From Nitrospinaceae bacterium (GTDB lineage: Bacteria > Nitrospinota > Nitrospinia > Nitrospinales > Nitrospinaceae): a stretch of DNA of 64,000 bases. Positions within the stretch are counted from its first letter, which is position 1; each line of letters begins with the position of its first letter. Location of the stretch: positions 864,001 through 928,000 of the forward strand of contig OZ245011.1 in the NCBI GenBank assembly GCA_965223665.1, in the 5' to 3' direction. Made by a program: the position numbers and the translations under genes. The notes beneath the pieces were generated by a model. That model was not told the origin of the DNA, ran no database searches, and was given only the letters and a program-made list of their open reading frames with translations. Shown here one piece after another: positions 47,200 through 62,880 of this stretch.

Positions 47200-49428
47200 A
47201 TGAAAACTCGTTGGTTAAATGCTTTCACAGTATCTATTGCGATTTCCCTCAGCTTAATTTTTGTATATTCCCTCGATCTTACATTTATTAAACTTCTAGA
47301 ACTTAAAGCATACGATTTTAAAATGTCCTTGAGAGGAAAACGACCTGTATCCGACAAAATAGTAATTGTCGCAATTGATGAGCATAGCTTACAACAAGAG
47401 GGACGGTGGCCCTGGCCGCGTACCCGTCTTGCAAATCTAGTTAACAAATTAACTAAATTTGATGCGACAGTAATCGGGTTAGATATCCTATTTCCAGAAA
47501 AAGACATTTACATTCCACTAGACGAAGTGATACGCGAGATAAAAAAAAAAGATCTCACAAAAATTAGTCGTAGCGAAGCTGTAAGTTGGTTAAAGCAAAT
47601 AAGTAATTCGGATGGCAAATTTGCTGAAGCAATTCTTCAGTCGAACCGTTTGGTAATGGGTTATTTTATTTATTCAACAGCCCAACAGGCAAAAAAATCA
47701 GCTAGAATGATGGGACCAAGAGAATTGGAGCTACTAGATTCTTCACAATATTCCATAGTCAATTTCAACAATAATTCTCAGGTTTTTGATTTTCTTCATC
47801 CTATTTTTGCTGTAGGTCTCAACATTCCATCTTTGATGAAAGTTGCCAAAAGAGCTGGTAGTCTTCACTTTATGCCAGATCGAGACGGAATTCTAAGGTT
47901 TATTCCCATGGTCCAGGCATACAAAAATGTTTTATTTCCCCCGTTCAGTTTACAAATTTTAAAAGAAGCTACTAATTGGAATACCACCATCGATATTTTT
48001 TCTGACCACGTTGCAGAAATCCAATTGGGAGATATACCCATTCCAGTTACAGAGAAGGGAGATTTTCTCATCAATTATTACGGACCGAGTCAAACCTTTA
48101 CTTACATATCCGCCTCCGACGTAATAAATGAAAGGGTGGATCCAACAACATTAAAGAATAAAATAGTACTCGTTGGCGCCACCGCAACTGCTCTCCCGGA
48201 CCTTCACAGCACTCCTTTCGACCCCTTGTATCCTGGGGTTGAGGTGCATGCAACCGTTATGGAAAATATTCTAAACCAAGATTTTTTGCAACGTCCACCT
48301 TGGATTCGTCTCTTGACCTTAATAATGGTTTTAATTACCGGGGTGCTTCTAGGTTGGGCTTCTCTTCATTTTAAAGCTTTTGGCACATCCATAATTTTAC
48401 TTTTTGGAATTGGGGGATATTTAGTTACAGACTACGTGCTTTTTACTCAGAAGGGGCTGTGGGTTTATACCGTGTATCCTGTGTTCTCTCAATTTCTTAT
48501 ATTTTCAGGAGTTACCCTATATCGATTCATTTTTGAAGAACGTGAAAAGCGTTTTATTAAAGGTGCATTCAGCCATTATTTAGCACCAACGGTGGTCAAC
48601 CAACTGGTGGAAAACCCAAAACTCCTTAAATTAGGCGGAGAACGTAAAGTGCTCACAGCTTTTTTTTCTGATGTGGCTGGGTTTTCTTCAATTTCAGAAA
48701 AAATGGAAGCAGAAGAATTGGTAGATTTGCTAAATGTTTATTTAACGGACATGACAGAAATAATTTTGAAATATGAAGGTACGGTAGACAAGTATGAAGG
48801 TGATGCAATCATTGCTTTTTTTGGAGCTCCTATTGCTTTTGAAGATCATGCCACCCGAACCTGTTTAGCAGCCATGGATATGCAAAAAAGACTGGCTGAG
48901 TTGCGGGATATTTGGAAAAAAGAAGGTCTTCCCGAAATGTTTATGCGTATCGGTATCAATACAGGGCCAATGGTGGTGGGTAATATGGGATCAATTAACC
49001 GTATGGATTACACTATGATGGGAGATTCAGTAAATTTAGCGGCACGGTTGGAAGGCGTCAACAAACAATATAAAACATATACAATGATCAGCGAGTATAC
49101 TTACGAGTTAGCAAAAAACAATATAGAAACCCGTGAATTGGATTCCATTCGAGTTGTAGGAAGACAGGAACCACTAAAAATCTATGAAGTATTGGGTAAA
49201 AAAGGTGAAATAAATGATTTTATACATCCCATTTTGCCTTACTTTAAAGAAGGCTTGAATCATTATAAAAATTTAAGGTGGGAAAGAGCTATCGAATCTT
49301 TCCAAACAGCATTAAACCTTTATGAAAACGATGGACCTTCAATGACTTATTACGAAAGGTGCATTACCTTCCAAAAACATCCCCCACCCTCTGACTGGGA
49401 TGGAGTATTTGATATGCCATCCAAATAA
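47200..49428 (+). CDS. CHASE2-domain class III adenylate/guanylate cyclase
   Basis: IVAIDE.S...G.WPWPR, D.DG..R, PGVE.HA CHASE2 motifs; 3 TM; FSDV.GF, DKY.GD, GD.VNLAARLE catalytic motifs. Confidence 0.93.
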   Translation: MKTRWLNAFTVSIAISLSLIFVYSLDLTFIKLLELKAYDFKMSLRGKRPVSDKIVIVAIDEHSLQQEGRWPWPRTRLANLVNKLTKFDATVIGLDILFPEKDIYIPLDEVIREIKKKDLTKISRSEAVSWLKQISNSDGKFAEAILQSNRLVMGYFIYSTAQQAKKSARMMGPRELELLDSSQYSIVNFNNNSQVFDFLHPIFAVGLNIPSLMKVAKRAGSLHFMPDRDGILRFIPMVQAYKNVLFPPFSLQILKEATNWNTTIDIFSDHVAEIQLGDIPIPVTEKGDFLINYYGPSQTFTYISASDVINERVDPTTLKNKIVLVGATATALPDLHSTPFDPLYPGVEVHATVMENILNQDFLQRPPWIRLLTLIMVLITGVLLGWASLHFKAFGTSIILLFGIGGYLVTDYVLFTQKGLWVYTVYPVFSQFLIFSGVTLYRFIFEEREKRFIKGAFSHYLAPTVVNQLVENPKLLKLGGERKVLTAFFSDVAGFSSISEKMEAEELVDLLNVYLTDMTEIILKYEGTVDKYEGDAIIAFFGAPIAFEDHATRTCLAAMDMQKRLAELRDIWKKEGLPEMFMRIGINTGPMVVGNMGSINRMDYTMMGDSVNLAARLEGVNKQYKTYTMISEYTYELAKNNIETRELDSIRVVGRQEPLKIYEVLGKKGEINDFIHPILPYFKEGLNHYKNLRWERAIESFQTALNLYENDGPSMTYYERCITFQKHPPPSDWDGVFDMPSK

Positions 49429-49501
49429 TTGAGAAGATTATTAGTAAATAGAAATTTTACGAAATAAAAACAAATTGAAAAAAGAAAGAATCAGGACAAT
49501 T

Positions 49502-50152
49502 CTAGCTCAAAATTCCTTGCTTATATGCATAACGAATTAATTGTGCGTTACTACTCAAGTTCATTTTTTTAAGTATCCGGGTTCTATAAGTACTAATGGT
49601 GGAAGCACTGAGTGAAAGTTCAACAGAAATATCATTTACAGATTTACCCAGAGCAATAAGACGAAATACCTCAAATTCCCTGGAAGAAAGGTTTTTATGA
49701 GGCGGTTTTCCATTGAATACTATTTCATTAATTGCAATCACATTGGCAAGATTAGGACTGATATATTTTTCTCCTTGAACCACTTGCCGTATGGCTTCAA
49801 CAATTAATTCCATAGAGCTTACTTTCTCCAAATAACCTGATGCACCTTCCTGAAAACACAATTTCGCACTGTCTTCTTCAGGAGAAGCACTAAATACGAT
49901 AATTGGAAGGTTCGGATATTCAATTTTTAACTGACGCATAACGTCCCAACCATTTTTTTCTGGCATATCTAAATCCAGGAGAACTATATCCAATTCCAAC
50001 ATTCGAGTTTGTTCTAATAACTCTATTCCATTTTTCACTTTCTTTACCACGGTCATATCCGAAATTTGGGACAGTATTTGCGCCAATCCTTCCCTAACGA
50101 CTTCATGGTCGTCAGCAATAATTATTCGGATTTTTTCCTTTTGGGCTACCAT
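49502..50152 (-). CDS. NarL/FixJ family response regulator (REC + LuxR HTH)
   Basis: IADDH, LD..MP, LS.RE.EV, STYR.RI..K. Confidence 0.92.
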   Translation of the reverse strand: MVAQKEKIRIIIADDHEVVREGLAQILSQISDMTVVKKVKNGIELLEQTRMLELDIVLLDLDMPEKNGWDVMRQLKIEYPNLPIIVFSASPEEDSAKLCFQEGASGYLEKVSSMELIVEAIRQVVQGEKYISPNLANVIAINEIVFNGKPPHKNLSSREFEVFRLIALGKSVNDISVELSLSASTISTYRTRILKKMNLSSNAQLIRYAYKQGILS

Positions 50153-50709
50153 AAAAACTTCAAAAAAAACGAAAGATTTTCTTTTTTCTTATCGTTAAAT
50201 GTTTAAGAATGTGTTCCGATCAAATTCTCCATAATCCCGTTATTATAGAAAAAGGTACCATAATTCGCATGACTTGCAACGAAATAACGCCTTATTTGAC
50301 TTATTTTAGACGGTTAATAAATAATTGAAATTAACATCTCAATCCCAAAATATTCACCACTATAAAACTATTTCAAAGAAGCCTGAATTCTATAAATCAC
50401 AACCATAATCCCAAAAATTATTTAAAATTTTTTAATTCCTTTCTGAGCAAATACAACAGTAGTTAATTCCATGTCGCTATTTCAACGACAAAATTTTCAC
50501 AACTCCTGTGACAAGACAAAACATTTTTTATTGATTATATTTAGACCTAGAATCTTCAATAAATTTTTTAATTGAAGAAAAAGATTAGTAGGTAGTTTGA
50601 GTTTTAGGACGGGTTATCCAAACCTGGCAAATCAAACAAGCCTTGGTTTGAACGAAATTAAATTCCTTAAGACAAACTACCGTCAGCTTTGACATAGGAG
50701 GGATTAAAA

Positions 50710-52496
50710 ATGTTATTAGAAACTATAAATCTAGCAAACCATCGCAGGGATCAAAAGTTTTCTATAGCACTCCTTTTGAAAACGCAAAGGAAGAATTTAA
50801 TAAACCTTTGGACACTATAAATGCAATGGAACTATTACAAGAATCAAAAGTATCCTATCAGACACTTCTTGATAATTCTTTCGATGCCATTATTTCAATT
50901 GATGCTGAAGGGCTAATCAAGGTATGGAATCATCGTGCAGAATCAATGTTTGGTTGGAAAGCAGAAGAAGTTATTGGTAAAGCTCTCACCCAAACGATCA
51001 TTCCACCTTCTTTTCATGAAGCGCATACTAAAGGCTTAAAAAACTTTTTAGCAAAAAATGAAAGTCGAGTTCTAAATCAAAAGTTGGAATTAACAGCAAT
51101 TCACCGAAAAGGAAATGAGTTTCCAATCGAAATATTCATTTGGGCAACTTACATAAGAAACAAAGTTTCTTTTACGGCCCTTATAAAAGACATAACTGAA
51201 AATAAAAACTTTCAGAAGGAAATGCGTCTTAAAAATGCAGAATATAAAGTACTGCACCAGGTGGCTCAAGTTCTTCAAAATTCAAAATCAATGGAAGAAA
51301 TGTTACACCATGCAATGGAAGTAATCAGCCAAAGCAAGGAACTACATGTAGAAAACAAAGCCGGAGTTTTTCTTGTGGATGAGGAAAAAAATGTACTGCG
51401 ACTCGCTTCTACCTTAGGAAATTTTCCAAAGGGTTTTCTGGAAAACCAGGCCGAGATTCCTTTTTACAATGTTCCCTATGGACGTTGCTATAGTACTGGA
51501 GAGATCCAAATCAAAGATTATTGCCAATTTAAACCTCATCGATTAGGTCCATTTGGAAATTTAGCCAATTATGGTACTTACATTATCCCCCTTAAAAGCA
51601 AAGCTAAAGTTGTGGGTATATTGTTTCTTTATACTCCAGAAACACCACCTTGTTATGAAGGTAGTACTGAAATTTTGATGTCAATCGGTTCCCTTATGGG
51701 CAATGCGATTCAACAAAGGAAATATGAAAAGAAAATTCATGAACAAAATAAAAAATTAAACAAACTCAATGAATTAAAAAACAAATTTCTTGGAATTGCT
51801 TAACACGATCTTCGAAGTCCCCTATTCGTAATTTTATCTTATAGCCGTATTCTTGCCGATGGATCCAAAGGCCAAATTAATGACCAGCAACTTTCTTTAA
51901 TTCAAAAAATAATAAATTCTGGTGAATATATGTGTGATTTATTGGGAAACTTATTGGACGTTTCAAAAATTGAAAGTGGCCAATATTTTTTAAATAAATC
52001 CGCACACAATATAAATGCTCTTGCATTTGAGGAAGTTGAAAAATTTCAACATGTCGCAAAAGAAAAAAATATTGAACTTCATTTTGAGAAAATGGATTCA
52101 CCCAACTTGATGGTGGACGTATGCTCCATAATCCAGGTAATGGATAATTTCATTGGAAATGCCATTAAATTTTCTCCTAAAAATACAAAAGTCTTCATCA
52201 AAACAGAAAATTTGAAAAGCTGGTTTCGATTCTCTGTGAAAGATCAGGGACCTGGAATTTCAGAAGAAAATAAAAAATTAGCTTTTAAAGAATTCCAAAC
52301 TTTAGGAAATAAACCCACTGGTGGGGAGAAATCGACCGGCCTGGGATTGGCTATTTCCAGGAAAATAATTCAACTGCATGAAGGCCAAGTTGGAATTATT
52401 TCCGAGATTGGAAAAGGGAGTACTTTTTACTTTGACCTACCAATCCTTAGAAAGGTCAACACGGAAGACGGTCAAACATTGATTAAAAATGACTAG
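50710..52496 (+). pseudogene. PAS-GAF-HisKA-HATPase sensor kinase interrupted by an in-frame TAA (51801-51803) and an apparent frameshift at the start
   Basis: Reads FLGIA*HDLRSPL and continues in frame into ORF 51930..52496 (NAIKF, DQGPGI, GLGL). The RBS-preceded ATG at 50710 is out of frame with the kinase frame. Confidence 0.8.
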
Positions 52497-52636
52497 TTTT
52501 TATTTAATTGTAGAAAGGTATCAACCTTTCAAAAATAGAATTTTTAAACTCTCAAAATAGAGAGAAGTCGATTTGAAAGATAGTATTACAATCTTACAAA
52601 AAGGCTAATTCACAACCCAAATGAAGGAGAATAAAA

Positions 52637-53059
52637 ATGTCAATTTTAGAAAACATTTCAGGAACCCATGGAAAAATTTTAATTGTAGATGATGACACAG
52701 AAATTAGAGATATCGTCAAATCGCAACTAATTGAAGGAGGTTATCAGGTACTGGAAGCCAAAGATGGAGAAGAGGCGATTAACCTTATGAAACAGGGATC
52801 AAATTTGCTCCGAGTGGGTTTGATTATCTGTGACATTCGTATGCCAAAAGTAAATGGTATCGAGGCTATTGATTATATAAAAGAAAATGCACCGTCTATT
52901 CCTATCATGGTGCTTACCGGATATCCAGATACTTATTTGGCATTATCCTTATTGAAAAAAGGAATTAAAGAATATGAGATTAAACCGGTTGAAAAAGATC
53001 GATTACTTGAAAAGGTACGAACTCTACTTGCTGCTAAACAAGATTTTAATTATGTCTAG
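52637..53059 (+). CDS. Single-domain response regulator
   Basis: ILIVDDD, CDIRMP, LTG, KP; AAGGAG RBS. Confidence 0.9.
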   Translation: MSILENISGTHGKILIVDDDTEIRDIVKSQLIEGGYQVLEAKDGEEAINLMKQGSNLLRVGLIICDIRMPKVNGIEAIDYIKENAPSIPIMVLTGYPDTYLALSLLKKGIKEYEIKPVEKDRLLEKVRTLLAAKQDFNYV

Positions 53060-53296: not shown

Positions 53297-53519
53297 GAGC
53301 AAATGTTTACTAGTTTTTTACAAGCATGGTTAAAGAGAACTTCCAAAATACCCCAATTAGGCGTTGGAAAATTTTTCACCTTTGCCGAAAAAAATATGCT
53401 ATTGTTGGCAAAGATTTTCCAGTGGAAGCAAAATATGCGCCGCAAGAATGTTTTGCTCCAAAGTTTAATTGTTTTACCAGGAAACTACTATGCAGTAAAA
53501 AAACTCGAGGCGTTTGCTC
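53297..53519 (+). ncRNA. Putative structured RNA or 5' leader (long stem with a three-way junction)
   Basis: Nested complementary segments found by hand, with several G-U pairs that work on the + strand only; not matched to a known family. Confidence 0.45.
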
Positions 53520-53559
53520 ACTGATTTTGCAAAAACCGCCTTATCTGGGAGGGTGGGTG

Positions 53560-56500
53560 ATGAGAAACTACAGCGGACACCTAATTCATTTTCAAATATT
53601 CTTATACCTGACAATCTTTGGATTTTATCCTCATGTTTCATTTGCTGCGAAATGCGAAAAGCCTATTGCCAAAATTGTATCGGCACAAGGAAGCGTAGAG
53701 GTACAACACGTTGGAAATGCAGATTGGAAACCAGTTGTATTAAATGAAACTTTTTGCCCGGGAGATAAGCTTCGTACAGATCCAAAAAGTCGTGCTGAAA
53801 TTGCGCTGGATAAATCTATTCTTCGCCTGAACGCCAATACCCTCCTTACCCTTAAAAATGTAAAGGAAAATAATACTGCCCTGATCGATTTACTTAAAGG
53901 AATCGCTTATTTTTTCAGTCTTGCCCCCAAAAGCCTCGAAGTCACAACTCCCTTTGCCATAGCTGCAGTCCGAGGCACAGAATTTCTGATAACTGTTACC
54001 CTCCAAAAAACTTTAATCACGATTTATGCCGGTAAAGTGTTTGCTTCCAATTCTAATGGATCCCTCATTTTGAAAAATGGGCAATCTGCTATCGCTGAAA
54101 GTGGTCAAGCTCCTGTTTTGCAGGTAAGACTGCGTCCACAAGACGCCGTTGCCTGGACTTTGTATTATCCACCAGTTATTAATATTCAAACTGAAGGTTA
54201 TCCGGAAGCAATCCGGCAATCGATTCAATATTATCAAAAGGGAAATATTAAAGGAGCATTTGACAGTATTGAAAACGCACCTGAGTTTCAGGATCCCAAG
54301 CTTTTAAACTATTTGGCGTCTCTAGAACTATCTGTCGGCCAGGTAGAAGCCGCCAACAAATACATTCAGAAAACCTTAAGCATTGACCCTAAAAATAGCG
54401 AAGGGTTGGCACTGCAATCAATCATTGCTTTGACTCAAAATAATAAAGAAGAAGCTTTAAGCAAAGCCAAACAGGCTGTTCAAGCCAACTCCCAATCTGC
54501 AACGGCGCAGATCGCTTTATCATATGCCCATCAGGCCAGGTTTGATATGAATAGCGCTCTGGCCAGTGGTCTAAAAGCCGTTGAACTGGAACCGCAAAAT
54601 GCACTGGCCTGGGCACGCCTTGCAGAACTCTGGTCGGCCAAGGGCTATCAAAAGAAAGCTCTGGAAGCAGCCCAAAAAGCGGTTTCGCTAAACCCAAACC
54701 TGGCAAGAACGCAAACGGTTCTTGGATTTGCTCATCTTACAAATGAAGATACCTCCAGTGCTCGCACCGCTTTCCAAAAAGCCATCGAACTGGATCAGGC
54801 AGACCCTCTTCCCAAATTGGGTCAAGGCATGGCTAAAATTCGAGACGGTGAACTGGAGGAAGGACGAAAAAATATTGAAGAAGCGGTCAACCTGGATCCA
54901 AACAATTCCCTGATGCGCAGCTATCTGGGAAAAGCATACTACGATGAAAAACGCAGTGTCAAAGCATTAGAGCAGTTCAGTATTGCTAAAAAGCAGGATC
55001 CCAAAGACCCAACTCCCCTTTTCTACAGCGCTATTGAAAAGCAAACCACCAACCGACCGGTGGAAGCATTGCACGATTTGCAAAAAGCAATCGATTTGAA
55101 CAATAATCGAGCACCGTTCCGGTCCCAGTTGTTAATGGACAAGGATCTCGCTTCTCGTAGTTCTGCCGTAGGGCGCATTTATACCGATCTAAATTTCCAG
55201 AATCGGGCCTTATTAGAGGGTTGGTTATCACTCGCTACAGACCCTACTAATTTTTCTGCCCATCGTCTTTTAGCAGACTCATACTCTATTTTACCGCGAC
55301 ATGAAATTGCCCGAGTCAGCGAACTGCTTCAGTCACAACTTTTGCAACTTGTTAACATGACCCCCATACAACCGCGCCTGGGGGAAAGTAATTTATTACT
55401 CATCAGTTCTGGTGGTCCGGGGGCCTTGTCCTTTAACGAGCTCAATCCCCTGTTCCAAAGCAATGGTATCACTTTCCAGGGAAATGGGATTGCCGGGGAA
55501 AACGATACCTACTCTGGCGAAGGCATCATTTCGGGAATTTTTGGAAAAGCTTCCTTCAGTGTAGGATACAGCAAATTTGATACCAACGGTTGGCGCCCAA
55601 ATGCAGACCAGGAAGATGACATTGTCAACGTTTTTACACAATTTCAGATTTCTCACCTTACAAGCGTACAATTTGAATACAGGTTCCGCGAGACTGTACA
55701 AGGAGATATTGTACAAAGGTTTTTTTCCTCAGACTTTCAGGCAACCTTAAGGAATAAAGATACAACAAATACAGCTCGCTTGGGTTTTCATCATGTATTC
55801 ATGCCTGGATTGGATGTTATTGGTAATTTTTCTTATCAAAATATGGATCGAGAATTGAAAGATCCATTTTTTTCAGTTGAACTCATGGGCAAAGATAAAT
55901 CTCTCGGTGGTGAGCTCCAAATGCTATTCAGGTCGAAATATATTAATATGGTGACCGGTGGAGGGTTCTTCTACATAAATATCAAAGAAACTTTTACCTT
56001 TACCCCCTTTCCACCCGAAATTTCGGATTTTACTCAGAAACATTCCAATTTTTATTTATATTCCTATATTAAAATATTAAAGAATTTAACCCTCACTATT
56101 GGAGGTAGCGGTGATTTCTTTAACACGGACAATCCCATGGCAAAGGATAAAAACCAATTTAATCCTAAGATTGGGGTCGTTTGGGAACCGCTCAAAGGAA
56201 CTACTATTCGTGGCGCCTGGTTTAGAGTCCTAAAGAGAACTTTGGTAGCTCAACAAACCATTGAACCGACTCAGATCGCCGGATTCAACCAGTTTTTTGA
56301 TGAACTTAATGGAACTGACTATTGGGTACGCGGAGTTGGTATTGATCAAAAATTCACTAAAAGTTTTTACGGTGGAATACAATTCACTGAGAAAGATTTG
56401 GATGTTCCTATTCTGTTTAGTTTCCCTCCAGCCCTGCCACAGCTAAATATTTTCTCCTGGGAAGAAAAACAAGCTCGCGCTTATTTATTTTGGACGCCGC

Positions 56501-56904
56501 ATCAATGGGTATCTCTATCTGCAGAATGGATTTGGGAACGCCTGGACAGGGAATCACTACTCAATTTAAATGTCCGAGCTTTAGAAACCCATTATTTTCC
56601 AATGAAGGTTAATTTTTTCCACCCTTGCGGGTTAAGCCTTTCCATCAAAGAAACCTATGTGAATCAAAAAGGCACTTTTAATCGATTGACTGCACTACCG
56701 GGAGTCCTTACCCCTGGAAAAGATAGTTTTTGGTTAACTGATATCGCCATCAAATATCGTTTTCCAAAGCGATATGGATTTCTGACCGCGGGGGCCACTA
56801 ATTTGTTTGACGAAAGCTTTCAGCACTTTGACCCGGATTTAAATAACACACGTATACAACCAGTCCGGGCTTTTTTTATTTCAGTGACACTAACAATTCC
56901 ATAA
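53560..56904 (+). CDS. FecR-like + TPR + C-terminal beta-barrel outer-membrane protein (NsrA-like / TonB-receptor-like)
   Basis: Start moved to MRNYS (53560, after GGGAGG). GD.LRT...SRA and V.TP.A.A.VRGTEF FecR motifs, many A..L.P TPR units, barrel-type C-terminus (NLFD..., alternating FFISVTLTI). Confidence 0.85.
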   Translation: MRNYSGHLIHFQIFLYLTIFGFYPHVSFAAKCEKPIAKIVSAQGSVEVQHVGNADWKPVVLNETFCPGDKLRTDPKSRAEIALDKSILRLNANTLLTLKNVKENNTALIDLLKGIAYFFSLAPKSLEVTTPFAIAAVRGTEFLITVTLQKTLITIYAGKVFASNSNGSLILKNGQSAIAESGQAPVLQVRLRPQDAVAWTLYYPPVINIQTEGYPEAIRQSIQYYQKGNIKGAFDSIENAPEFQDPKLLNYLASLELSVGQVEAANKYIQKTLSIDPKNSEGLALQSIIALTQNNKEEALSKAKQAVQANSQSATAQIALSYAHQARFDMNSALASGLKAVELEPQNALAWARLAELWSAKGYQKKALEAAQKAVSLNPNLARTQTVLGFAHLTNEDTSSARTAFQKAIELDQADPLPKLGQGMAKIRDGELEEGRKNIEEAVNLDPNNSLMRSYLGKAYYDEKRSVKALEQFSIAKKQDPKDPTPLFYSAIEKQTTNRPVEALHDLQKAIDLNNNRAPFRSQLLMDKDLASRSSAVGRIYTDLNFQNRALLEGWLSLATDPTNFSAHRLLADSYSILPRHEIARVSELLQSQLLQLVNMTPIQPRLGESNLLLISSGGPGALSFNELNPLFQSNGITFQGNGIAGENDTYSGEGIISGIFGKASFSVGYSKFDTNGWRPNADQEDDIVNVFTQFQISHLTSVQFEYRFRETVQGDIVQRFFSSDFQATLRNKDTTNTARLGFHHVFMPGLDVIGNFSYQNMDRELKDPFFSVELMGKDKSLGGELQMLFRSKYINMVTGGGFFYINIKETFTFTPFPPEISDFTQKHSNFYLYSYIKILKNLTLTIGGSGDFFNTDNPMAKDKNQFNPKIGVVWEPLKGTTIRGAWFRVLKRTLVAQQTIEPTQIAGFNQFFDELNGTDYWVRGVGIDQKFTKSFYGGIQFTEKDLDVPILFSFPPALPQLNIFSWEEKQARAYLFWTPHQWVSLSAEWIWERLDRESLLNLNVRALETHYFPMKVNFFHPCGLSLSIKETYVNQKGTFNRLTALPGVLTPGKDSFWLTDIAIKYRFPKRYGFLTAGATNLFDESFQHFDPDLNNTRIQPVRAFFISVTLTIP

Positions 56905-56965: not shown

Positions 56966-57601
56966 ATGCTTAACAAATCAAAGGAAAAAGTACCTAAGTT
57001 AATAATTAAGTTAATTTTAATGATTTATTTTACCATTTCATTTTCCGCTTGCACAAAGACAATACCAAACTATGAGCATCCTATTCCTGATACCACTCGA
57101 ATACCCACTCGAATAAATAAAACTATTGAATTCAAAGGAAAAGGAGAAAAAGAAAGTAAAGTAATATGCACCCAAGTAGATCCAAAAACTCAATGTGAGA
57201 TACAAGTCCCCTGCCAAACAGGAGAAAAAGTAGAAACGAAAACTCTCGCAGAAGTTTTAGGCGTGGACAAAGCAATAGTTGATATTGAAAATCATGCTTG
57301 TGCAACATTTAGCCTGGATCTAGGTCACCAAAAAAATCCTTATTATTGTTCCGGAGGTTTTTGTAGGTGGTCACCATCTGACAGAAGATTAAAGAACAAT
57401 ATCCATAAAATTGGGCAATTGAAAAATGGTCTCAATATCTATAAATTTAAATATATTTGGGATGATGCCTGGAGGGTGGGAGTAATGGCAGATGAGGTAC
57501 GTAAAGTTTTACCCGAAGCCGTGATTACCATCAATGGATACGATCTCGTGGATTATTCAAAAATCAAAATTGACTATTCTGCAATTACAGATGATCAATA
57601 A
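56966..57601 (+). CDS. Cys-rich putative lipoprotein with a C-terminal Peptidase_S74-like (intramolecular chaperone) domain
   Basis: FSAC lipobox-like site at C29, 6 further Cys, then SDRRLK.NI..IG...G..IY.F.Y...G.MA.EV....PEAV....GY..VDY. Confidence 0.8.
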   Translation: MLNKSKEKVPKLIIKLILMIYFTISFSACTKTIPNYEHPIPDTTRIPTRINKTIEFKGKGEKESKVICTQVDPKTQCEIQVPCQTGEKVETKTLAEVLGVDKAIVDIENHACATFSLDLGHQKNPYYCSGGFCRWSPSDRRLKNNIHKIGQLKNGLNIYKFKYIWDDAWRVGVMADEVRKVLPEAVITINGYDLVDYSKIKIDYSAITDDQ

Positions 57602-57626
57602 AATGCAAATTTCATAATTCTGTATT

Positions 57627-57654
57627 AAGGCAGGGTCTTTTTGGACCCTGCCTT
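57627..57654 (+). terminator. Intrinsic terminator hairpin (near-identical to 60440..60467)
   Basis: AAGGCAGGGTC-TTTTTG-GACCCTGCCTT. Confidence 0.75.
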
Positions 57655-57956
57655 CTTCATTTATGAACATTTGGATAAATAATTTACCTGTATTTTTTTT
57701 AGAATATGGAATGAACCTTCATCATCAACTTCCTAGAAATATTTACCAATCCATTTGCCTCTTTTAATAATTTTCTTAAATTTTTTTCTGCATTTAAATC
57801 AGCAATGATGTTTTAATAACTTGTCTCCTTGTTCAGGATCTAGGAAAAAGTGAATTTAGCAAATCAGGATTAAAATAGTGTAACTATTGATAATGTATTG
57901 AGATGTTTTTGAACAAGAAATTTTTATCGAATCAAACCAAATGAGGAGGGATAAAT

Positions 57957-58451
57957 ATGCTTTACAAATCTAGAGCACCCATCACCATCATAATGATTAA
58001 AACTTTTGCACTTGTTTATTTTATTATTTACTTTTCTGGAATTGCAAATTCCAATGAGATTCAGCAGGGTCTGGACACCACCCGAATACCTACCAAAATT
58101 AAAAAAACAATAAAATTTTTTGATAACAAAGAAAAAGCAAGAACAATGGAAAGTTTTGGAAATGAAAGAATAGCTAGCACATCAGAAAATTCTGACGCCA
58201 CCCCGGATACCAGCAAAACAGTGTGCACGGAAGTGGATCCAAAGACTCAATGTGAAATTGCAATACCTTGTGGATCGGAAGAAGAATTAGAAAAATTTTC
58301 GCTGGCGGAAATCTTGGGAATGGGAAAGGCTAATATCATCATTCCTGGTCAAACTTGTGCAACCTTTATTCTTGATATTGATCACCCCAAAACTCCCTGG
58401 TATTGTTCAGGAGGAATTTGCACTTTGTATGGTTCAGGCAATTCTGGATGA
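57957..58451 (+). CDS. Secreted Cys-rich protein, paralog of 56966..57601 without the S74 domain
   Basis: DTTRIPT.I.KTI.F, CT.VDPKTQCEI..PC, LAE.LG, CATF.LD, YCSGG.C all shared. Confidence 0.85.
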   Translation: MLYKSRAPITIIMIKTFALVYFIIYFSGIANSNEIQQGLDTTRIPTKIKKTIKFFDNKEKARTMESFGNERIASTSENSDATPDTSKTVCTEVDPKTQCEIAIPCGSEEELEKFSLAEILGMGKANIIIPGQTCATFILDIDHPKTPWYCSGGICTLYGSGNSG

Positions 58452-58503
58452 AGAACTTGATATCTCTAAAATTGGAAAGTATTAAGATTTTGAATAAAAT
58501 ATA

Positions 58504-58536
58504 AAGAAGGCCGGGTAATTTTTTCTCGGCCGTCTT
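58504..58536 (+). terminator. Terminator-like hairpin related to 57627 and 60440
   Basis: AAGAAGGCCGGG ... CTCGGCCGTCTT. Confidence 0.55.
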
Positions 58537-59143
58537 GGCTTTGAGAAATATATTAGAGGATTATACCGTTTTTCATGCCTCTTTAATTCTTACCAAATGT
58601 GACATTCCAATTTTTCCTAAGGAAAAAAAATTCTCTACATTCTCATTTTCAGAGTTTCTTGCCAAAGATTTTCTTGTCCCAAATTTTATTCTCCCTTCTA
58701 AACTCCACCCTTCCCCAAAATTCATTCTTTATTTTCTGACCAAAGGACAACTGACAATTGCTTACCTTTGTCGTAGAACCCCTAAAACACAAAAAACTAC
58801 ATTTTTTGGTTGTATTTTACCAGGTTTATAGTATATTCCGTTTAACTAAATTTTTGGTTTATTAAACTTCTAACCTTTGGTGTTTTATACATGAAAACTA
58901 ATTAAAGCCTTAAGTTTAACCAAAACGAGAAGAGCCCGCCAGAATCAATTGGCTCCTTATTATTACTAAACCAAATAATTTTGGATTATAAAAATTTTGT
59001 CTTCAACGATTTTACCCGTTTTCTTGAAAAACCTCCAAGGGCAAAACCATACGCTCTTAACCAACTAAATCTATTTTTTTATAGGCCTAGTTGAATATAT
59101 ATAAAAAAGCGTTTTATTCAAAACCATTATAGGAGGGCTTAAT

Positions 59144-59638
59144 ATGCTTATCAGGCAAAAAACATATTTCTTAATTGGCTTATGGTTTTTGATGTTGTTT
59201 GTACTTTACGCTACACCCCAAATAGTATTAGCAAAAGAAAAAGGTCAAAAGGAAGAATCTACAAAAAATTTAACTGGCCCATCAGCCAACCGTACTTGCT
59301 TAAACTTGGGAAGAGCCTCTATTTTGGTTTCATTTACAGATGGTTGTCCGAGAGATCCCAAAAAAGTTAAATTTTTCACAGAAACCCAATGCCAAGGAAA
59401 AAGAAAAAATCCGGATATTTTATCAAAGGCTGTGACCGTGTACAGCTCAGGAATCGACACAGGAGGGGTTCTCGAATGTAGGTGGAATGCAAAAGTTTGG
59501 AAAGTCAATCCATACTGGTATGTCTATTCTGCGGGAGGTAATGTAGCTTGCACCTGTTACGATTTCACCAATCCGCTTCCATATACATGCGACCCGGAGG
59601 ATTTAAATAATCCTCCTGCTAATTGTTCAGGAAATTAA
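59144..59638 (+). CDS. Secreted Cys-rich protein (8 Cys)
   Basis: Signal peptide ending VLA, AGGAGG RBS, C-terminal NPYWYVYSAGGNVACTCYDFT...YTC.PE.L.NPP..CS. Confidence 0.82.
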   Translation: MLIRQKTYFLIGLWFLMLFVLYATPQIVLAKEKGQKEESTKNLTGPSANRTCLNLGRASILVSFTDGCPRDPKKVKFFTETQCQGKRKNPDILSKAVTVYSSGIDTGGVLECRWNAKVWKVNPYWYVYSAGGNVACTCYDFTNPLPYTCDPEDLNNPPANCSGN

Positions 59639-59797: not shown

Positions 59798-60286
59798 ATG
59801 AATAACAAATATATAAAACCAGCTAAACCATTATTTGTCCAATTAGGCATTATAATCCTCTCAGCCTTGGTATTCCTTGGATCTGATAATGGATCTAATT
59901 TGATTGTTTCCAATACCTGCATTAATTTGGATAGCAATGCATCTGTTTGTATTACTAGAAACGATGATGGAACCCCATCAACTGTAGACTGGTTTCCAAG
60001 AACGGGATGCCCACGTTCACTGGCATGTCCTTCTCTTGATTCTTCTACTGAAAAGAGCAATCTTGCCTTGGGAGATTCCTCGGATATTTTTACTTCCAAA
60101 GAGGAGGGCGAAATTTGCACCGATGGGCACTCTAATGAGTGTCTTGATAAAGAGATATTTAACCCCACCTGGTATCAATATACTGCTGGGGGTAATGCAT
60201 ATTGCAAATGTTATGACTTTACTGCTGCTCCTCCCTATACATGCACACCGGAGCAATTAGCAAATCCTCCCTCTTGGTGTTCATAA
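59798..60286 (+). CDS. Secreted Cys-rich protein (10 Cys), paralog of 59144..59638
   Basis: Start moved to MNNKY (59798, after AAGGA). TC.NL, GCPR and the C-terminal ~40 aa are shared with 59144. Confidence 0.8.
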   Translation: MNNKYIKPAKPLFVQLGIIILSALVFLGSDNGSNLIVSNTCINLDSNASVCITRNDDGTPSTVDWFPRTGCPRSLACPSLDSSTEKSNLALGDSSDIFTSKEEGEICTDGHSNECLDKEIFNPTWYQYTAGGNAYCKCYDFTAAPPYTCTPEQLANPPSWCS

Positions 60287-60291
60287 TAATT

Positions 60292-60393
60292 ATAGGGGTT
60301 ATGGCAGATGAGGTTAAGAAAGTTAAACCGGAAGCCGTAATTACCATCAATGGATATGATCTCGTGGATTATTCGAAAATCCCATTGAACTAA
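60292..60393 (+). pseudogene. Detached C-terminal fragment of an S74-like domain
   Basis: IGVMADEVKKVKPEAVITINGYDLVDYSKIPLN*; 60301-60381 matches 57485-57565 at 71/81 nt and 25/27 aa by hand count. Confidence 0.85.
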
Positions 60394-60439: not shown

Positions 60440-60470
60440 AAGGCAGGGTCTTTTTCGGCCCTGCCTTTTT
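60440..60470. terminator. Intrinsic terminator hairpin between convergent genes
   Basis: AAGGCAGGGTC-TTTTTC-GGCCCTGCCTT followed by a T-run. Confidence 0.8.
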
Positions 60471-60489: not shown

Positions 60490-62880
60490 TTAATTACTTC
60501 GTGGAATGGTAAAGAAAAAGGTGCTCCCCTTCCCTATTTCTGACTTGAACCCGATTTTCCCTTTGTGTCCTTCCTCAATAATTTCCTTGCAGGACATCAG
60601 GCCAAATCCATCACCGTCAGGTTGAGAGGTAAAGTTTTCATTAAACAAAAGTCTTTTGATTTCTTCCGGAATTCCCGTTCCTTTATCCTCAATACGGACC
60701 TCAATAAATTCCTCTAAACCTTCAACAGAAACACAAATTTCAGAATTCTTTTGGGAGGCATAACCTGCGTTGAGTATCATGTTCTGTAGAACTCTTTTAA
60801 TGTCCAATGTGTTTACCGGTCCAATAGAATTAGAATCATTTTCAAGAAGTGTTACTTTTTTATTTTTAATGTCATCATGAAAGCCAATTTCTTCTTTTAC
60901 TTCCTTAACTAAATCAAAAATATCTATTTCTTTTTTTGGATATTCTCGAGTTCCCTTTTGGACACAAGCCAGGCTTTGGTCAATCATTGAAACCATGTTA
61001 TTTTTTACGGAAATCATAACCTCAAGACCTTTTTTGAGTTTATCAAGGCCCTTACGCATATTATGCTGCTCATTGGAACCGGTTAGTTTTTCCAGAGTAT
61101 TTTGAAAATGCATCTTGGAAAACTCCAGAGGCACTAAACAGTTTTTCATGTCGTGAGTAAAGTGACTCAGTTGTTGAACATCATTGGACATTGTATCCAG
61201 GTCATTTCTTAAACGGCGTGAACATACTTTCATCATTTCCAGCAGGGCTTTGGAATTGGACACAATGTATTTGGCAAATAAATCTTTATCGATTTCAATT
61301 ATTAGACCATCGGTTAATGCCACTGCAGAAGCTGACCGAGGCAAATTGTCAATCAAGGAAATTTCTCCAAAATATTCTCCCGGGTTTAGATCCGTAATAA
61401 CTTTTTGGTAGTTTGGCCCCTTACTAATTCTGACTTTTCCACGAAGAAGAATATGAAGATATTGTTCATCCCTGGCCCCTTCCTTTATCAAAACATCCCG
61501 CGCCTTAAGAACCACATCCCTGCTTTCTTTTGCAAGATTTACTTTTGCCTCCAGTGGGAGACAGTCAAAAAGATCAATCTGCTTTAAAAGTTCTAACTTC
61601 CTCGTTATAGCATTATCGTCTGTAATATTGGTTTGTGATAATTGACCGGACTCTTTTTTAGGTTCGGTTCTTATAGATTTGGGCAGGGTGAAACAAAACT
61701 TTGTACCCTTCCCCCAATGAGATTCAAATCCAATTTTTCCATTATGGTATTTTTCAATAATCTCCTTACAGGATATTAAACCTATTCCGTTTCCATCCGG
61801 CTTAGAGGAAAAACTTTCCTTTAAAATAAAGGGTTTAATATCATCCGGAATACCAGAGCCGTTGTCCTCAATACTGATTTCAATTGCATGGTTCATATTT
61901 TTTACAATACAGACTATTTGATCTTTTTTCTGGGTTGCATAACCTGCATTGATGATCAGGTTTTGCAAAACTCTTTTAATATCCAAATAGTTGATTTTCC
62001 CAATGACTTTGGATTCCGGAGATTCCACCCTGAGTGTTTTGTGTTCAAGTTGCTTATGACAGGAAATTTCTTTTACCGTTTCTTTGGCTAAGGCCAATAT
62101 GTCAAAACTATCTTTGACGTATTCTCCCTGCTGTTTTTTAACGCAGGCCAGACTCTGATCGATTAATGTGGTCACATAATCCCGAACTTCTATAATTGTA
62201 TCCACTCCCATTTTCAACTTTTTAAAACCATCCCGCCTTATATGACCTTCTTCAGTCCCATTCATTATTTGCAAAACTTTTTGAAGATAGCTTTCTGAGT
62301 TTTTTAAGGGTAAAAGAACGTTGCGCATGTCATGTGTAAAACAACTCATTTTACGCATGTCTGATTCCATACGGGCTAAGTCATTTCGAATTCTTTGAGC
62401 AAAAACTTTCATCATCGCCACCAAGGCCTTTGAGTTGGAGGCAATATACTTTTGAAAAATTGTCTCATTGATTTCCAGCAATAAGGTATTTTTCATAGAC
62501 TTTACTGAAGCCGAACGGGAATTCGAATCTACTAAAGGCAATTCGCCTACATAATCGCCAGTACTTAAATAGGAAATAATTTTTTTTGATTTAAAAACCA
62601 CCACACGGCCAGTGAGGATAATATACATGGATTTCTGCTGCTCACCTTCCCATTCGAAGAGGATTTCCTCCTCACCCAGGCGCCAAAGGGGACTTTCCTC
62701 TATAATCCTCAGCAAGGTCTCTTTGTTAAAACAATTGAAAAGCTCAATTTTCATCAATTCTTCCAATTCCATTTCTTGAAGTTTCTTTTGCAGTCCCATT
62801 TGTCCAGGATTTGGCGAAACTTTTTTATAAGAATGGATATCAGATACCTGAGTCTTTTTTTCTGGAGAAAAGTTTTTCAT
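60490..62880 (-). CDS. Tandem (cNMP-binding + histidine kinase)x2 soluble protein
   Basis: Two GE.....RSAS cNMP motifs, two H-boxes (THDMRN, THDMKN), two N/G1/G2 box sets (NL/MI.NA, ED.G.GIP, G.GL). Confidence 0.88.
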   Translation of the reverse strand: MKNFSPEKKTQVSDIHSYKKVSPNPGQMGLQKKLQEMELEELMKIELFNCFNKETLLRIIEESPLWRLGEEEILFEWEGEQQKSMYIILTGRVVVFKSKKIISYLSTGDYVGELPLVDSNSRSASVKSMKNTLLLEINETIFQKYIASNSKALVAMMKVFAQRIRNDLARMESDMRKMSCFTHDMRNVLLPLKNSESYLQKVLQIMNGTEEGHIRRDGFKKLKMGVDTIIEVRDYVTTLIDQSLACVKKQQGEYVKDSFDILALAKETVKEISCHKQLEHKTLRVESPESKVIGKINYLDIKRVLQNLIINAGYATQKKDQIVCIVKNMNHAIEISIEDNGSGIPDDIKPFILKESFSSKPDGNGIGLISCKEIIEKYHNGKIGFESHWGKGTKFCFTLPKSIRTEPKKESGQLSQTNITDDNAITRKLELLKQIDLFDCLPLEAKVNLAKESRDVVLKARDVLIKEGARDEQYLHILLRGKVRISKGPNYQKVITDLNPGEYFGEISLIDNLPRSASAVALTDGLIIEIDKDLFAKYIVSNSKALLEMMKVCSRRLRNDLDTMSNDVQQLSHFTHDMKNCLVPLEFSKMHFQNTLEKLTGSNEQHNMRKGLDKLKKGLEVMISVKNNMVSMIDQSLACVQKGTREYPKKEIDIFDLVKEVKEEIGFHDDIKNKKVTLLENDSNSIGPVNTLDIKRVLQNMILNAGYASQKNSEICVSVEGLEEFIEVRIEDKGTGIPEEIKRLLFNENFTSQPDGDGFGLMSCKEIIEEGHKGKIGFKSEIGKGSTFFFTIPRSN

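What the first reader, a model, noticed from the sequence alone, without database searches (positions are those of the whole stretch)
57377..57601. Phage tailspike-type autocleaving chaperone (S74-like) fused to a small cellular lipoprotein
Seen: SDRRLK begins at 57377, immediately after the CSGGFCRWSP segment, followed by GVMADEV...PEAV...GY..VDY. Known: Peptidase_S74/ICA domains (K1F endosialidase, MYRF) autocleave at the Ser of S-D-x-R-x-K using a Ser-Lys dyad, linked to trimer folding. Ser and Lys are present with the right spacing, but the long C-terminal coiled coil appears absent and no phage genes are nearby. Inference: self-cleavage would leave the disulfide-closed YYCSGGFCRW hairpin at a new free C-terminus, which is where the S74-less paralog ends, so the domain may act as a self-removing cap on a signal.
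Basis: partly seen in the sequence, partly recalled or inferred. Interest (0 to 1): 0.72.

Follow-up and report, generated by a model that had tools for sequence, protein, structure and literature searches.

The report
Phage self-cleaving cap on secreted protein
A small exported cysteine-rich bacterial protein, encoded next to an outer-membrane sensor and cAMP-signalling genes, ends in a real but unusually short copy of the self-cleaving folding domain that phages use on tail fibres, and cutting it off would leave the same end that relatives without the domain have.

Summary
ORF 56966-57601 (211 aa) has SDRRLK at 57377 and matches Pfam Peptidase_S74 (aa 138-186, E 1.9e-10, 41.3 bits against a cut-off of 22). 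The domain is a 74-aa "mini" S74. It is closest to the C-terminal end of podophage internal-virion or ejection proteins (phrog_6121, E 7.9e-21). It lacks the C-terminal coiled coil of the studied members.

The N-terminal part is a rare six-Cys exported domain with no Pfam family. 12 of 13 relatives without S74 stop 2-5 aa after its last Cys, and in 5 of 5 relatives with S74 the catalytic Ser sits 3-4 aa after it. S74 is better conserved than the cargo in 10 of 10 pairs.

The gene heads a tandem array of four cysteine-rich paralogs. One of them carries a decayed S74 3' half (60295-60393). The array lies directly downstream of an NsrA-like FecR-TPR-barrel protein, in a CHASE2-cyclase and cNMP-kinase cluster that is syntenic in two related genomes.

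Cleavage, trimerisation and any ligand role are untested. The scan has seen NsrA-type modules and S74-capped bacterial fibres on other DNA, but no look-alike of this protein.

The parts
56966..57601 (+). ORF A, 211 aa: signal peptide, six-Cys domain and mini-S74 domain
   Evidence: identical protein P0001 in the protein collection
56966..57052 (+). Signal peptide ending in a lipobox-like SFSAC (Cys29)
   Evidence: A regex of a recalled PROSITE-type lipobox rule matches. It does not match in the S74-bearing relatives.
57053..57376 (+). Exported six-Cys beta-rich domain (aa 30-137) ending ...YYCSGGFCRWSP. No Pfam or NCBIfam family.
57377..57598 (+). Mini Peptidase_S74 (intramolecular chaperone / autocleavage) domain, aa 138-211. 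The predicted scissile bond is Pro137|Ser138.
   Evidence: Pfam E 1.9e-10; phrog_6121 E 7.9e-21; S1, D2, R4 and K6 invariant in 6 of 6 aligned domains; cleavage not tested
57377..57394 (+). SDRRLK motif: Ser138 and Lys143 of the putative catalytic dyad
   Evidence: Sequence. It aligns with SDRRIKK of PDB 6f45 in the profile search. The roles of S587 and K592 in MyRF are from passages of PMC8326128.
57627..57654 (+). Terminator-like hairpin after ORF A (12-bp stem)
57957..58451 (+). Paralog B, 164 aa, 48% identical to A, no S74, ends ...YCSGGICTLYGSGNSG
   Evidence: P0009
59144..59638 (+). Paralog C, 164 aa, secreted and Cys-rich, 23% identical to A in the three-way alignment
59798..60286 (+). 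Paralog D, 162 aa, 30% identical to C (E 5e-19), ends ...PPSWCS followed by TAATAA
60295..60393 (+). Out-of-frame relic of the 3' half of an S74 domain (GVMADEVKKVKPEAVITINGYDLVDYSKIPLN). The Ser-Lys half is deleted. A hairpin like the one after A follows at about 60440-60467.
   Evidence: profile positions 33-64 of 65, E 1.7e-13; 138 of 176 nt identical, including the hairpin
53560..56904 (+). NsrA-like outer-membrane protein (FecR domain, TPR repeats, C-terminal beta-barrel), 61 nt upstream of ORF A. The longest ORF starts at 53326; the likely start is 53560.
47200..49428 (+). CHASE2 adenylate/guanylate cyclase
   Evidence: 73% identical ortholog in G015
49502..50152 (-). LuxR/GerE-type response regulator
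60490..62880 (-). Tandem sensor kinase with two cNMP-binding domains, converging on the paralog array

Best explanation
ORF A is made as a pro-protein. A Sec (possibly lipoprotein) signal peptide exports it. Its roughly 109-aa six-Cys domain folds and forms disulfides outside the cytoplasm. The C-terminal 74-aa mini-S74 domain then removes itself by Ser138/Lys143-dependent autoproteolysis of the Pro137-Ser138 bond, as S74 domains do in phage fibres, Bdellovibrio MAT fibres and MyRF. The mature product ends ...CSGGFCRWSP, which is the kind of C-terminus that S74-less family members are born with. S74 is therefore an optional, self-removing folding, oligomerisation or masking module grafted onto a non-fibre cargo. 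It came from a podophage internal-virion or ejection protein lineage. Shown: domain identity, motif, architecture, the pattern of C-termini, conservation and synteny. Inferred: export, disulfides, transient trimerisation, cleavage, and that the mature domain works together with the adjacent NsrA-like receptor and CHASE2 cyclase.
For: (1) Pfam PF13884 matches above its gathering score, and phrog_6121 matches at E 7.9e-21. The tblastn search found 65 phage records. One of them is Brucella phage F1 ORF18, where the match is the last 65 aa of a 326-aa structural protein. (2) S, D, R and K of SDxRxK are invariant in 6 of 6 aligned domains. The residue before Ser is Pro, as at the MyRF cut P586|S587 (PMC8326128 passages). 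(3) In 5 of 5 S74-bearing members (A, P0002-4, the L011 ORF) the Ser lies 3-4 aa after SGGxC. 12 of 13 S74-less members stop 2-5 aa after it, and the 13th, paralog B, stops after 9 aa. P0010 (no S74) and P0002 (with S74) are otherwise close relatives. (4) S74 is more conserved than the adjacent 75-aa cargo core in 10 of 10 pairs: 77-98% against 30-88%. Its GC content (0.342) equals that of the cargo (0.345). It is therefore not a fresh or decaying insert. (5) A second paralog (D) kept its ORF after losing the catalytic half of its S74, so the module is dispensable for the cargo. (6) Solved ICA domains rank 1, 2 and 5 of 48,161 chains against the AF2 model, although Z is only 3.4, 2.8 and 2.5. 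(7) Secreted cellular S74 proteins that self-cleave are documented: Bd3182 and its S782A mutant (PMC10769870 passages).
Against: No cleavage data exist for this or any roughly 65-74-aa mini-S74 that I could find. In MyRF the C-terminal alpha4 coiled coil is the main driver of trimerisation, and mutating it blocks cleavage (PMC8326128 passages). That helix is absent here. The cargo is a small globular domain, not a triple beta-helix or fibre, and nothing shows that it trimerises. Matches to solved S74 structures are weak: profile E 0.045 and 0.16, Foldseek E 0.73, Z no higher than 3.4 and tied with kinase N-lobes. High S74 conservation could also reflect recent cassette exchange and not selection. 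Known S74 domains act in the cytoplasm or on fibres. Action on a disulfide-rich Sec substrate has no precedent that I know of.
Confidence: 0.6

Rival explanations
1. The mini-S74 is not cleaved. Having lost the coiled coil, it stays attached as a permanent oligomerisation or interaction module, or as a plain C-terminal extension, on the exported Cys-rich domain.
For: The coiled coil needed for trimerisation-dependent cleavage in MyRF is absent. No fibre lies upstream to nucleate a trimer.
Against: The Ser and Lys of the dyad and the neighbouring D and R are invariant in 6 of 6 domains. There would be no reason for that if catalysis were lost. The same mini form ends phage virion proteins. The Ser sits exactly where S74-less relatives end.
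Confidence: 0.2
2. S74-capped pro-ligand. The four paralogs are self-made protein signals or periplasmic partners for the adjacent NsrA-like outer-membrane receptor and the CHASE2 cyclase. S74 keeps the C-terminal CSGGxC tail masked until the protein is exported and assembled. The rapid divergence of the slot sets signal specificity.
For: ORF A starts 61 nt after the NsrA-like gene, with no terminator-like hairpin reported in the scanned 3' end of that gene or the gap (from 56700). In the two relatives that have the NsrA-like gene (G015, G009), the slot between it and the cNMP kinase also holds exported Cys-rich proteins. G015's is a detectable homolog (E 3.4e-8). G009's 379-aa protein shares an N-domain with long-form family members (E 8e-14). 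Between G000 and G015 the flanking proteins are 67-73% identical but the slot protein only 24%. In S. meliloti, NsrA and CyaK perceive a signal of protein nature (abstract and passages of PMC7529298; passages of PMC13001267). Earlier scan notes report Cys-rich partners beside such modules elsewhere (unchecked leads).
Against: Adjacency is the only link. S. meliloti nsrA-cyaK has no such neighbour. No context could be recovered for the metagenomic family members, whose contigs are 1-5 kb. Fast evolution also fits surface antigens or bacteriocin-like proteins.
Confidence: 0.12
3. Non-functional relic. A phage-derived 3' fragment was fused by chance to a cellular gene and is on its way to decay, as downstream of paralog D.
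For: One S74 copy in the array is visibly decayed. No other S74 was found in this genome, and none in the 20 other genomes of its family (0 of 20).
Against: The reading frame is intact and all motif residues are present. The same fusion occurs in 4 further proteins from other assemblies, with S74 77-98% conserved. Base composition equals that of the host gene.
Confidence: 0.06

Closest known systems
C-terminal intramolecular chaperone / autocleavage domains of phage fibres and spikes (Peptidase_S74, PF13884: K1F endosialidase 3GW6, GA-1 appendage 3GUD, T5 pb1, S16 gp37 6F45)
   Same: The Pfam family matches. The SDxxxK Ser-Lys motif sits at the domain start and the domain lies at the extreme C-terminus of the protein it would mature. 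SDRRIKK of 6f45 aligns with SDRRLK.
   Different: It is only 74 aa (65 aa in relatives), whereas the aligned solved chains are 120-256 residues long. It has no long C-terminal helix. The cargo is a 109-aa disulfide-rich globular domain and not a trimeric beta-helix or fibre. The protein carries a signal peptide.
phrog_6121 podophage 'virion structural / internal virion / ejection' proteins (e.g. Brucella phage F1 ORF18; P0005-P0008)
   Same: This is the closest sequence relative of the S74 part: E 7.9e-21, 49-68% identity. It has the same mini format, ending 63-71 aa after the Ser.
   Different: Those are 326-392-aa cytoplasmic, Q-rich virion proteins in phage genomes. Here the domain sits on a cellular exported protein in a conserved chromosomal signalling locus.
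Bdellovibrio bacteriovorus MAT fibres, S74 subgroup (Bd3182)
   Same: It is a cellular, signal-peptide-bearing protein ending in an S74 domain. Bd3182 self-cleaves at S782, and the S782A mutant blocks this (PMC10769870 passages).
   Different: MATs are fibres of about 1,000 aa with a conserved roughly 130-aa N-domain and a beta-helix tip. ORF A is 211 aa with no fibre.
MyRF ICA domain (7DC3)
   Same: It shares the Ser-Lys dyad and a Pro-Ser scissile bond. It is the best structural and profile match among solved structures, though weak. It is also a precedent for S74 releasing a non-fibre functional domain.
   Different: MyRF has a beta-helical stalk and an alpha4 coiled coil that is essential for trimerisation and cleavage. 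Both are missing here.
NsrA-CyaK signal-perception pair of Sinorhizobium meliloti (the neighbourhood, not the finding itself)
   Same: The upstream protein has the same FecR-TPR-barrel architecture and length. It is 24% identical to NsrA over about 500 aa (E 2e-23), and the barrel end also aligns (E 1e-5). It is clustered with a CHASE2 cyclase.
   Different: There is no Cys-rich gene beside nsrA-cyaK in S. meliloti. Here the cyclase is about 4 kb away, with two-component genes inserted between, and the presumed cAMP reader is a cNMP-binding kinase and not Clr.

Membership tests
Peptidase_S74 / ICA domain (PF13884) | Match to the family profile above the curated gathering score | tested here: met
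   41.3 bits against 22, E 1.9e-10, profile positions 1-57 of 58. It is also the only such hit in the genome.
Peptidase_S74 / ICA domain (PF13884) | Ser and Lys of the catalytic dyad in an S-D-x-x-x-K motif at the domain start | tested here: met
   S138 and K143. S, D, R and K are invariant in 6 of 6 aligned domains. The role of the dyad is taken from passages of PMC8326128 and PMC10769870.
Peptidase_S74 / ICA domain (PF13884) | [quoted passage not shown] | tested here: not met
   Only 25 aa follow the Pfam match. The AF2 DSSP trace shows short strands and 3-residue helical turns. The nearest phage relatives lack it too.
Peptidase_S74 / ICA domain (PF13884) | Upstream trimeric beta-helix or fibre that the domain chaperones | tested here: not met
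   The upstream part is a 109-aa six-Cys domain modelled as a compact beta-rich fold (pLDDT 78.7). It has no fibre repeats and no Pfam hit.
Peptidase_S74 / ICA domain (PF13884) | Fold like solved ICA domains | tested here: inconclusive
   7dc3 Z 3.4 (rmsd 5.6, 60 aa), 3gud Z 2.8 (rmsd 3.5, 55 aa) and 3gw6 Z 2.5 (rmsd 5.9, 59 aa) take ranks 1, 2 and 5 of 48,161 chains. They are tied with unrelated chains. Foldseek gave E 0.73.
Peptidase_S74 / ICA domain (PF13884) | Ser/Lys-dependent autoproteolysis and trimer formation | not testable with these tools
   This needs expression, mutants, mass spectrometry and SEC-MALS.
Bacterial lipoprotein | Lipobox with Cys at position 15-35 after a basic, hydrophobic leader | tested here: met
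   MIYFTISFSAC with Cys29 fits a recalled PROSITE-type rule. It is not conserved. None of the other 4 S74-bearing members fits it, and none of paralogs B, C or D does. Two syntenic-slot proteins of relatives do fit it. No dedicated predictor was available.
Bdellovibrio MAT fibre family | Trimeric fibre of about 1,000 aa with a conserved roughly 130-aa beta-rich domain after the signal peptide | tested here: not met
   The protein is 211 aa in total with no fibre region. The features of MATs are from passages of PMC10769870. No sequence comparison with a MAT protein was run.
NsrA-CyaK type envelope signalling module (neighbouring genes) | A protein of about 1,200 aa with a FecR domain, TPR repeats and a C-terminal barrel, homologous to NsrA and clustered with a CHASE2 cyclase | tested here: met
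   Pfam FecR, TPR and TonB-receptor-like barrel hits. The tblastn search hits the annotated nsrA gene, which is followed by cyaK. NsrA has the same Pfam architecture. BLASTP gives E 2e-23 and 1e-5, collinear. A CHASE2 cyclase lies at 47200-49428.

The most novel reading that the evidence does not exclude
The array encodes self-made, fast-diverging protein ligands or co-receptors for an NsrA-like outer-membrane receptor and CHASE2 cyclase cascade. The phage-derived mini-S74 acts as a self-removing pro-domain that unmasks the conserved CSGGxC C-terminal tail only after export and assembly. That would make S74 a maturation switch for a bacterial protein signal. It would also supply a cognate, genetically encoded ligand for the CHASE2 sensor class, whose natural inputs are largely unknown.
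Probability: 0.12. Interest if true: 0.85.

Novelty: new variant of a known kind. Interest (0 to 1): 0.55.

Why it matters
S74 domains are known as quality-control caps for trimeric fibres of phages, predatory bacteria and one animal transcription factor. Here a minimal 65-74-aa version sits on a small disulfide-rich exported domain with no fibre. Nature supplies matched versions with the domain, without it, and after losing it.

That gives a compact system for asking two questions. What is the minimal self-cleaving S74 unit? Can it work without the coiled coil and outside the cytoplasm?

The location is a second reason for interest. The genes fill a hypervariable slot of an NsrA-like receptor, CHASE2 cyclase and cNMP-kinase cluster. 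That makes the cargo a concrete candidate partner or ligand for a sensor class with few known inputs.

Tried and rejected
1. Complex prediction with three copies of aa 29-211 returned no answer (score 0.00, controls not run). It is not evidence either way.

2. A single-sequence PDB search with the S74 part found nothing relevant.

3. The fold of the N-domain remains unplaced. VIA wide gave a best Z of 2.8, with 4 chains at Z 2 or more of 48,161. Foldseek found none at E <= 0.001. The ESM Atlas scored no higher than 0.80, which is chance level.

4. Scans of genome contigs gave nothing with the protein as query. With alignment A5 they gave only 9-15-residue matches that I regard as spurious (L007-L010).

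5. The metagenome-contig scan gave one real locus, L011 (1,145 bp, another S74-bearing member). The other three were short matches. No gene context for distant family members could be obtained this way.

6. Alignment A3 was too diverse for the search for related loci (error).

7. The search for homologous proteins with paralog D found only D itself.

8. No RNA holder was listed among the sequencing runs.

9. The NsrA paper of Garnerone et al. 2018 is not held. Its content is cited only through other papers.

10. I considered and dropped a Slam-like lipoprotein translocon reading for the upstream barrel. The only support was a TPR_Slam hit at E 0.37, and the NsrA homology explains the protein better.

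11. I considered and dropped a decoy that poisons phage ejection-protein trimers. Nothing supports it.

12. P0015 and P0017 are giant multidomain proteins that match only short stretches. They were left out of all alignments and counts.

13. Literature searches for PF13884, for Peptidase_S74 or 'intramolecular chaperone', for CHASE2 plus FecR, and for MAT fibres listed no paper whose title, abstract start or the passages I read describe an S74 domain on a small non-fibre exported protein. Most of the 632 papers were never listed or opened.
Full report
**1. The observation**

ORF 56966..57601 on the + strand encodes 211 aa.

Pfam-A places Peptidase_S74 (PF13884) on aa 138-186. It covers profile positions 1-57 of 58, with E 1.9e-10 and 41.3 bits against a gathering score of 22. 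NCBIfam has no model for the protein. A whole-genome six-frame scan finds this as the only PF13884 match in the 4.35-Mb assembly. The call is solid and not a chance motif.

**2. What kind of S74**

Against PHROGs, the best family is phrog_6121 ('virion structural protein'). It matches aa 132-200 to profile positions 319-387 of 392, E 7.9e-21. Ordinary tail-fibre PHROGs follow at E 1e-7 and weaker.

A tblastn search of 50,697 phage records gives 65 records, all below 60% identity. Of these, 47 cover at least 80% of the query. The features under the matches are annotated 'internal virion protein D', 'putative ejection protein' or 'structural protein'. In Brucella phage F1 the match is the last 65 codons of the 326-aa ORF18, two genes before a peptidoglycan hydrolase.

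The four S74-only hits from the protein collection (P0005-P0008, 337-364 aa, Q-rich) also end 63-71 aa after the Ser. The domain is therefore a 'mini' S74, the Pfam core plus about 10-25 residues. The AF2 model (aa 29-211; mean pLDDT 79.3, about 90 in the S74 part) shows short strands and one 7-residue helix, and nothing resembling a coiled coil.

S, D, R and K of SDxRxK are invariant in 6 of 6 aligned domains.

Comparison with solved structures is only weakly positive.
- A profile of the six domains finds MyRF ICA (7dc3) at E 0.045.
- The same profile finds the phage S16 long-tail-fibre tip (6f45) at E 0.16, with SDRRIKK aligned to SDRRLK.
- Foldseek puts 7dc3_B at rank 11 (E 0.73, 33% identity over 46 columns).
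- VIA-align against 48,161 chains puts 7dc3, 3gud and 3gw6 at ranks 1, 2 and 5. Z is only 3.4, 2.8 and 2.5, which is tied with kinase N-lobes.

**3. The cargo**

Residues 1-29 fit a lipobox rule that I recalled from PROSITE (MIYFTISFSAC). Residues 30-137 have six Cys and no Pfam or NCBIfam match.

HMMER with aa 29-137 against 1.84 billion representative proteins finds 16 proteins at E <= 1e-3. They include the protein itself and paralog B. Two giant multidomain proteins (P0015, P0017) match only short stretches and were left out of what follows.

The remaining family has a conserved core...C-T-x-V-D-P-x-T-Q-C-E-x-G-V-x-C ... P-G-Q-x-C-x-T-F ... C-S-G-G-R-C-Y-x-x. It occurs in short forms of about 90-165 aa and in long forms of 215-288 aa with an extra N-domain. 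None carries a Pfam domain.

The family pattern that bears on the finding is this. In 12 of 13 S74-less members the protein stops 2-5 aa after SGGxC; paralog B stops after 9 aa. In all 5 S74-bearing members (A, P0002, P0003, P0004 and the 197-aa ORF of metagenome locus L011) the Ser of SDRRLK lies 3-4 aa after it. P0010 (136 aa, ends CYWR) and P0002 (197 aa, CYWV-SDRRLK...) are otherwise close relatives. A cut at the Ser would therefore recreate the native C-terminus of the family. This is the strongest comparative argument that S74 is a removable extension.

None of the other four S74-bearing proteins has a lipobox by the same rule. 'Lipoprotein' is thus a property of this one member at most.

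The N-domain modelled alone (pLDDT 78.7) is a small beta-rich fold. It has no convincing structural neighbour (best Z 2.8; Foldseek none at E <= 0.001) and no Atlas lead.

**4. Conservation**

Across the five S74-bearing proteins, S74 is more conserved than the 75 aa before it in 10 of 10 pairs. S74 identity is 77-98%; cargo identity is 30-59%, or 88% for the near-identical pair P0002 and L011. The GC content of the S74 codons (0.342) equals that of the cargo codons (0.345) and is close to the window mean (0.361). The domain is neither a fresh insert nor decaying. The pattern fits purifying selection, but it could also arise from exchange of an S74 cassette among cargo genes.

**5. A tandem array and a dead S74**

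ORF A is followed by three further exported Cys-rich ORFs.
- B (57957..58451) is 48% identical to A.
- C (59144..59638) is 23% identical to A.
- D (59798..60286) is 30% identical to C, E 5e-19.

Directly after D's TAATAA stop, and out of frame, lies GVMADEVKKVKPEAVITINGYDLVDYSKIPLN (60295-60393). It matches positions 33-64 of the 65-position S74 profile at E 1.7e-13. It is 80% identical to aa 171-205 of A. It is followed by a hairpin nearly identical to the terminator after A. Over the S74 half plus hairpin, 138 of 176 nt are identical. No frame upstream of it encodes the SDRRLK half. A second, differently built cargo therefore once carried the module, or received its 3' end by recombination, and survives without the catalytic half. 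No S74 trace was found after B or C at E <= 0.001.

**6. Neighbourhood**

61 nt upstream of A ends a 1,114-aa protein (likely start 53560). It has a FecR domain, TPR repeats and a C-terminal TonB-receptor-like barrel. A tblastn search against plasmids hits Sinorhizobium pSymB at the gene annotated nsrA, which is immediately followed by cyaK. NsrA has the same Pfam architecture, and CyaK is a CHASE2 cyclase. BLASTP is collinear: 24% identity over about 500 aa (E 2e-23), and the barrel end also aligns (E 1e-5).

The window also holds the following genes:
- a CHASE2 cyclase (47200-49428);
- a LuxR-type response regulator;
- PAS-GAF, HATPase and REC ORFs;
- converging on the array, a kinase with two cNMP-binding domains (60490-62880).

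According to the passages I read, NsrA with CyaK (and CyaD1/D2) perceives a signal of protein nature (PMC7529298, abstract and passages; PMC13001267, passages). [quoted passage not shown] FecR-CHASE2 pairing is also described in Burkholderia (PMC5192318, passages). The original NsrA paper is not held.

**7. Synteny**

Among 41 related genomes, the NsrA-like protein was found at E <= 1e-20 in 3: G000, G015 and G009. It was not found in G001, which is the same genus and 98% complete, with this query.

In G015 the order is LuxR regulator, CHASE2 cyclase, NsrA-like gene, one 143-aa Cys-rich lipobox protein, cNMP kinase. In G009 the same frame holds two exported Cys-rich proteins of 379 and 223 aa.

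The G015 protein matches the N-domain profile (E 3.4e-8; BLASTP 24% identity, E 1e-6). The G009 379-aa protein shares its N-part with long-form family member P0012 (33% identity, E 8e-14). The G009 223-aa protein is not detectably related to D (E 0.34).

Between G000 and G015 the cyclase is 73% identical, the NsrA-like protein 67% and the kinase 67%, but the slot protein only 24%. The slot is thus a conserved position with fast-evolving, modular, exported Cys-rich content. Neither relative has S74 there: 0 of 20 other genomes of the family match the S74 profile.

In the phylum sample, 7 of 120 genomes including G000 have an S74-profile match. One of them (G073, locus L025) is a 194-aa exported protein with a Gly/Gln-rich linker and an S74 domain, on a small GC-rich contig.

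**8. Mechanism**

Most likely (0.6): export, oxidative folding of the six-Cys domain, transient S74-driven assembly, then Ser138/Lys143 autoproteolysis at Pro137|Ser138. This releases a mature, possibly lipid-anchored, domain with the family's native tail.

The Pro-Ser bond and the dyad mirror MyRF, which is cut at P586|S587 and whose S587A and K592A mutants are uncleaved (PMC8326128 passages). Secreted cellular S74 proteins that self-cleave are documented in Bdellovibrio, with Bd3182 and its S782A mutant (PMC10769870 passages).

The main weakness lies in the same MyRF paper. It attributes trimerisation, which is a precondition for cleavage, mainly to the alpha4 coiled coil, and that helix is absent here. 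The cargo is also not a fibre. A three-copy complex prediction returned no answer and is not counted either way.

The rivals are an uncleaved oligomerisation module (0.2), a relic (0.06), and the bolder reading that S74 unmasks a self-made ligand or partner of the NsrA-like/CHASE2 cascade (0.12). The last does not exclude the best explanation.

**9. Novelty**

The domain belongs to a known family, and cellular S74 proteins are known. The new features are these:
- the minimal format on a non-fibre, disulfide-rich exported cargo;
- the natural series of versions with S74, without it, and after losing it;
- the location in an NsrA-type signalling cluster.

My literature searches listed no paper whose title, abstract start or the passages I read describe such an architecture. 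Most of the papers found were never listed or opened, so this is not proof of absence.

Earlier notes of this scan report many NsrA-type modules, some with a Cys-rich partner, and S74-capped bacterial fibres on other DNA. They hold no look-alike of this protein. I reached the NsrA homology independently, before that look-up.

Verdict: observation confirmed, interpretation partly supported, a new variant of a known kind, interest 0.55.

Noticed in passing
window 47200-53059 and 60490-62880: The locus reads as a complete cascade: a CHASE2 cyclase, a kinase built of two tandem modules that each have a cNMP-binding domain (the two halves align with each other's orthologs at 44% identity), and a LuxR-type response regulator. 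cAMP may therefore feed a two-component system and not a Crp-type regulator.
   Followed up: partly
window 50808-53059: A PAS-GAF ORF (50808..51803), a separate HATPase_c ORF (51930..52496) and a stand-alone receiver (52637..53059) lie between the regulator and the NsrA-like gene. In G015 and G009 the cyclase and the NsrA-like gene are direct divergent neighbours, so this looks like an insertion. It may be a kinase split in two, or one that lacks HisKA.
   Followed up: no
window 53326-53559: The longest ORF of the NsrA-like gene has a 78-aa N-terminal extension with no counterpart in the G009 ortholog or in NsrA. The signal-peptide-like start at 53560 is the more likely start.
   Followed up: partly
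L025 146-730 (G073 contig C268): A 194-aa exported protein with a Cys pair, a Gly/Gln-rich low-complexity linker and an S74 domain (E 2.7e-16) that has a longer C-terminal tail. It is another short secreted S74 protein, on a 2.1-kb GC-rich contig that may not belong to that genome bin.
   Followed up: partly
G065 contigs C175 (18037-18739) and C137 (27875-28000): Three S74-profile matches in one genome of the same class. One lies in a 392-aa open frame, the length of phrog_6121 proteins. One contains a TGA stop. This may be a prophage carrying the donor type of mini-S74.
   Followed up: no
L022 11809-13703 (G009): The syntenic slot holds a 379-aa protein whose N-part is the long-form N-domain of metagenomic family members (E 8e-14 to P0012) but whose Cys-rich C-terminus is different. 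It also holds a 223-aa protein with a canonical LLAGC lipobox. The slot proteins look modular.
   Followed up: partly
window 57602-57956 and 58452-59143: Long AT-rich spacers of 355 and 692 nt without ORFs of 100 aa or more separate the paralogs. No convincing promoter excess was seen (17 promoter-like sites against 13.4 +/- 3.9 in shuffles).
   Followed up: no
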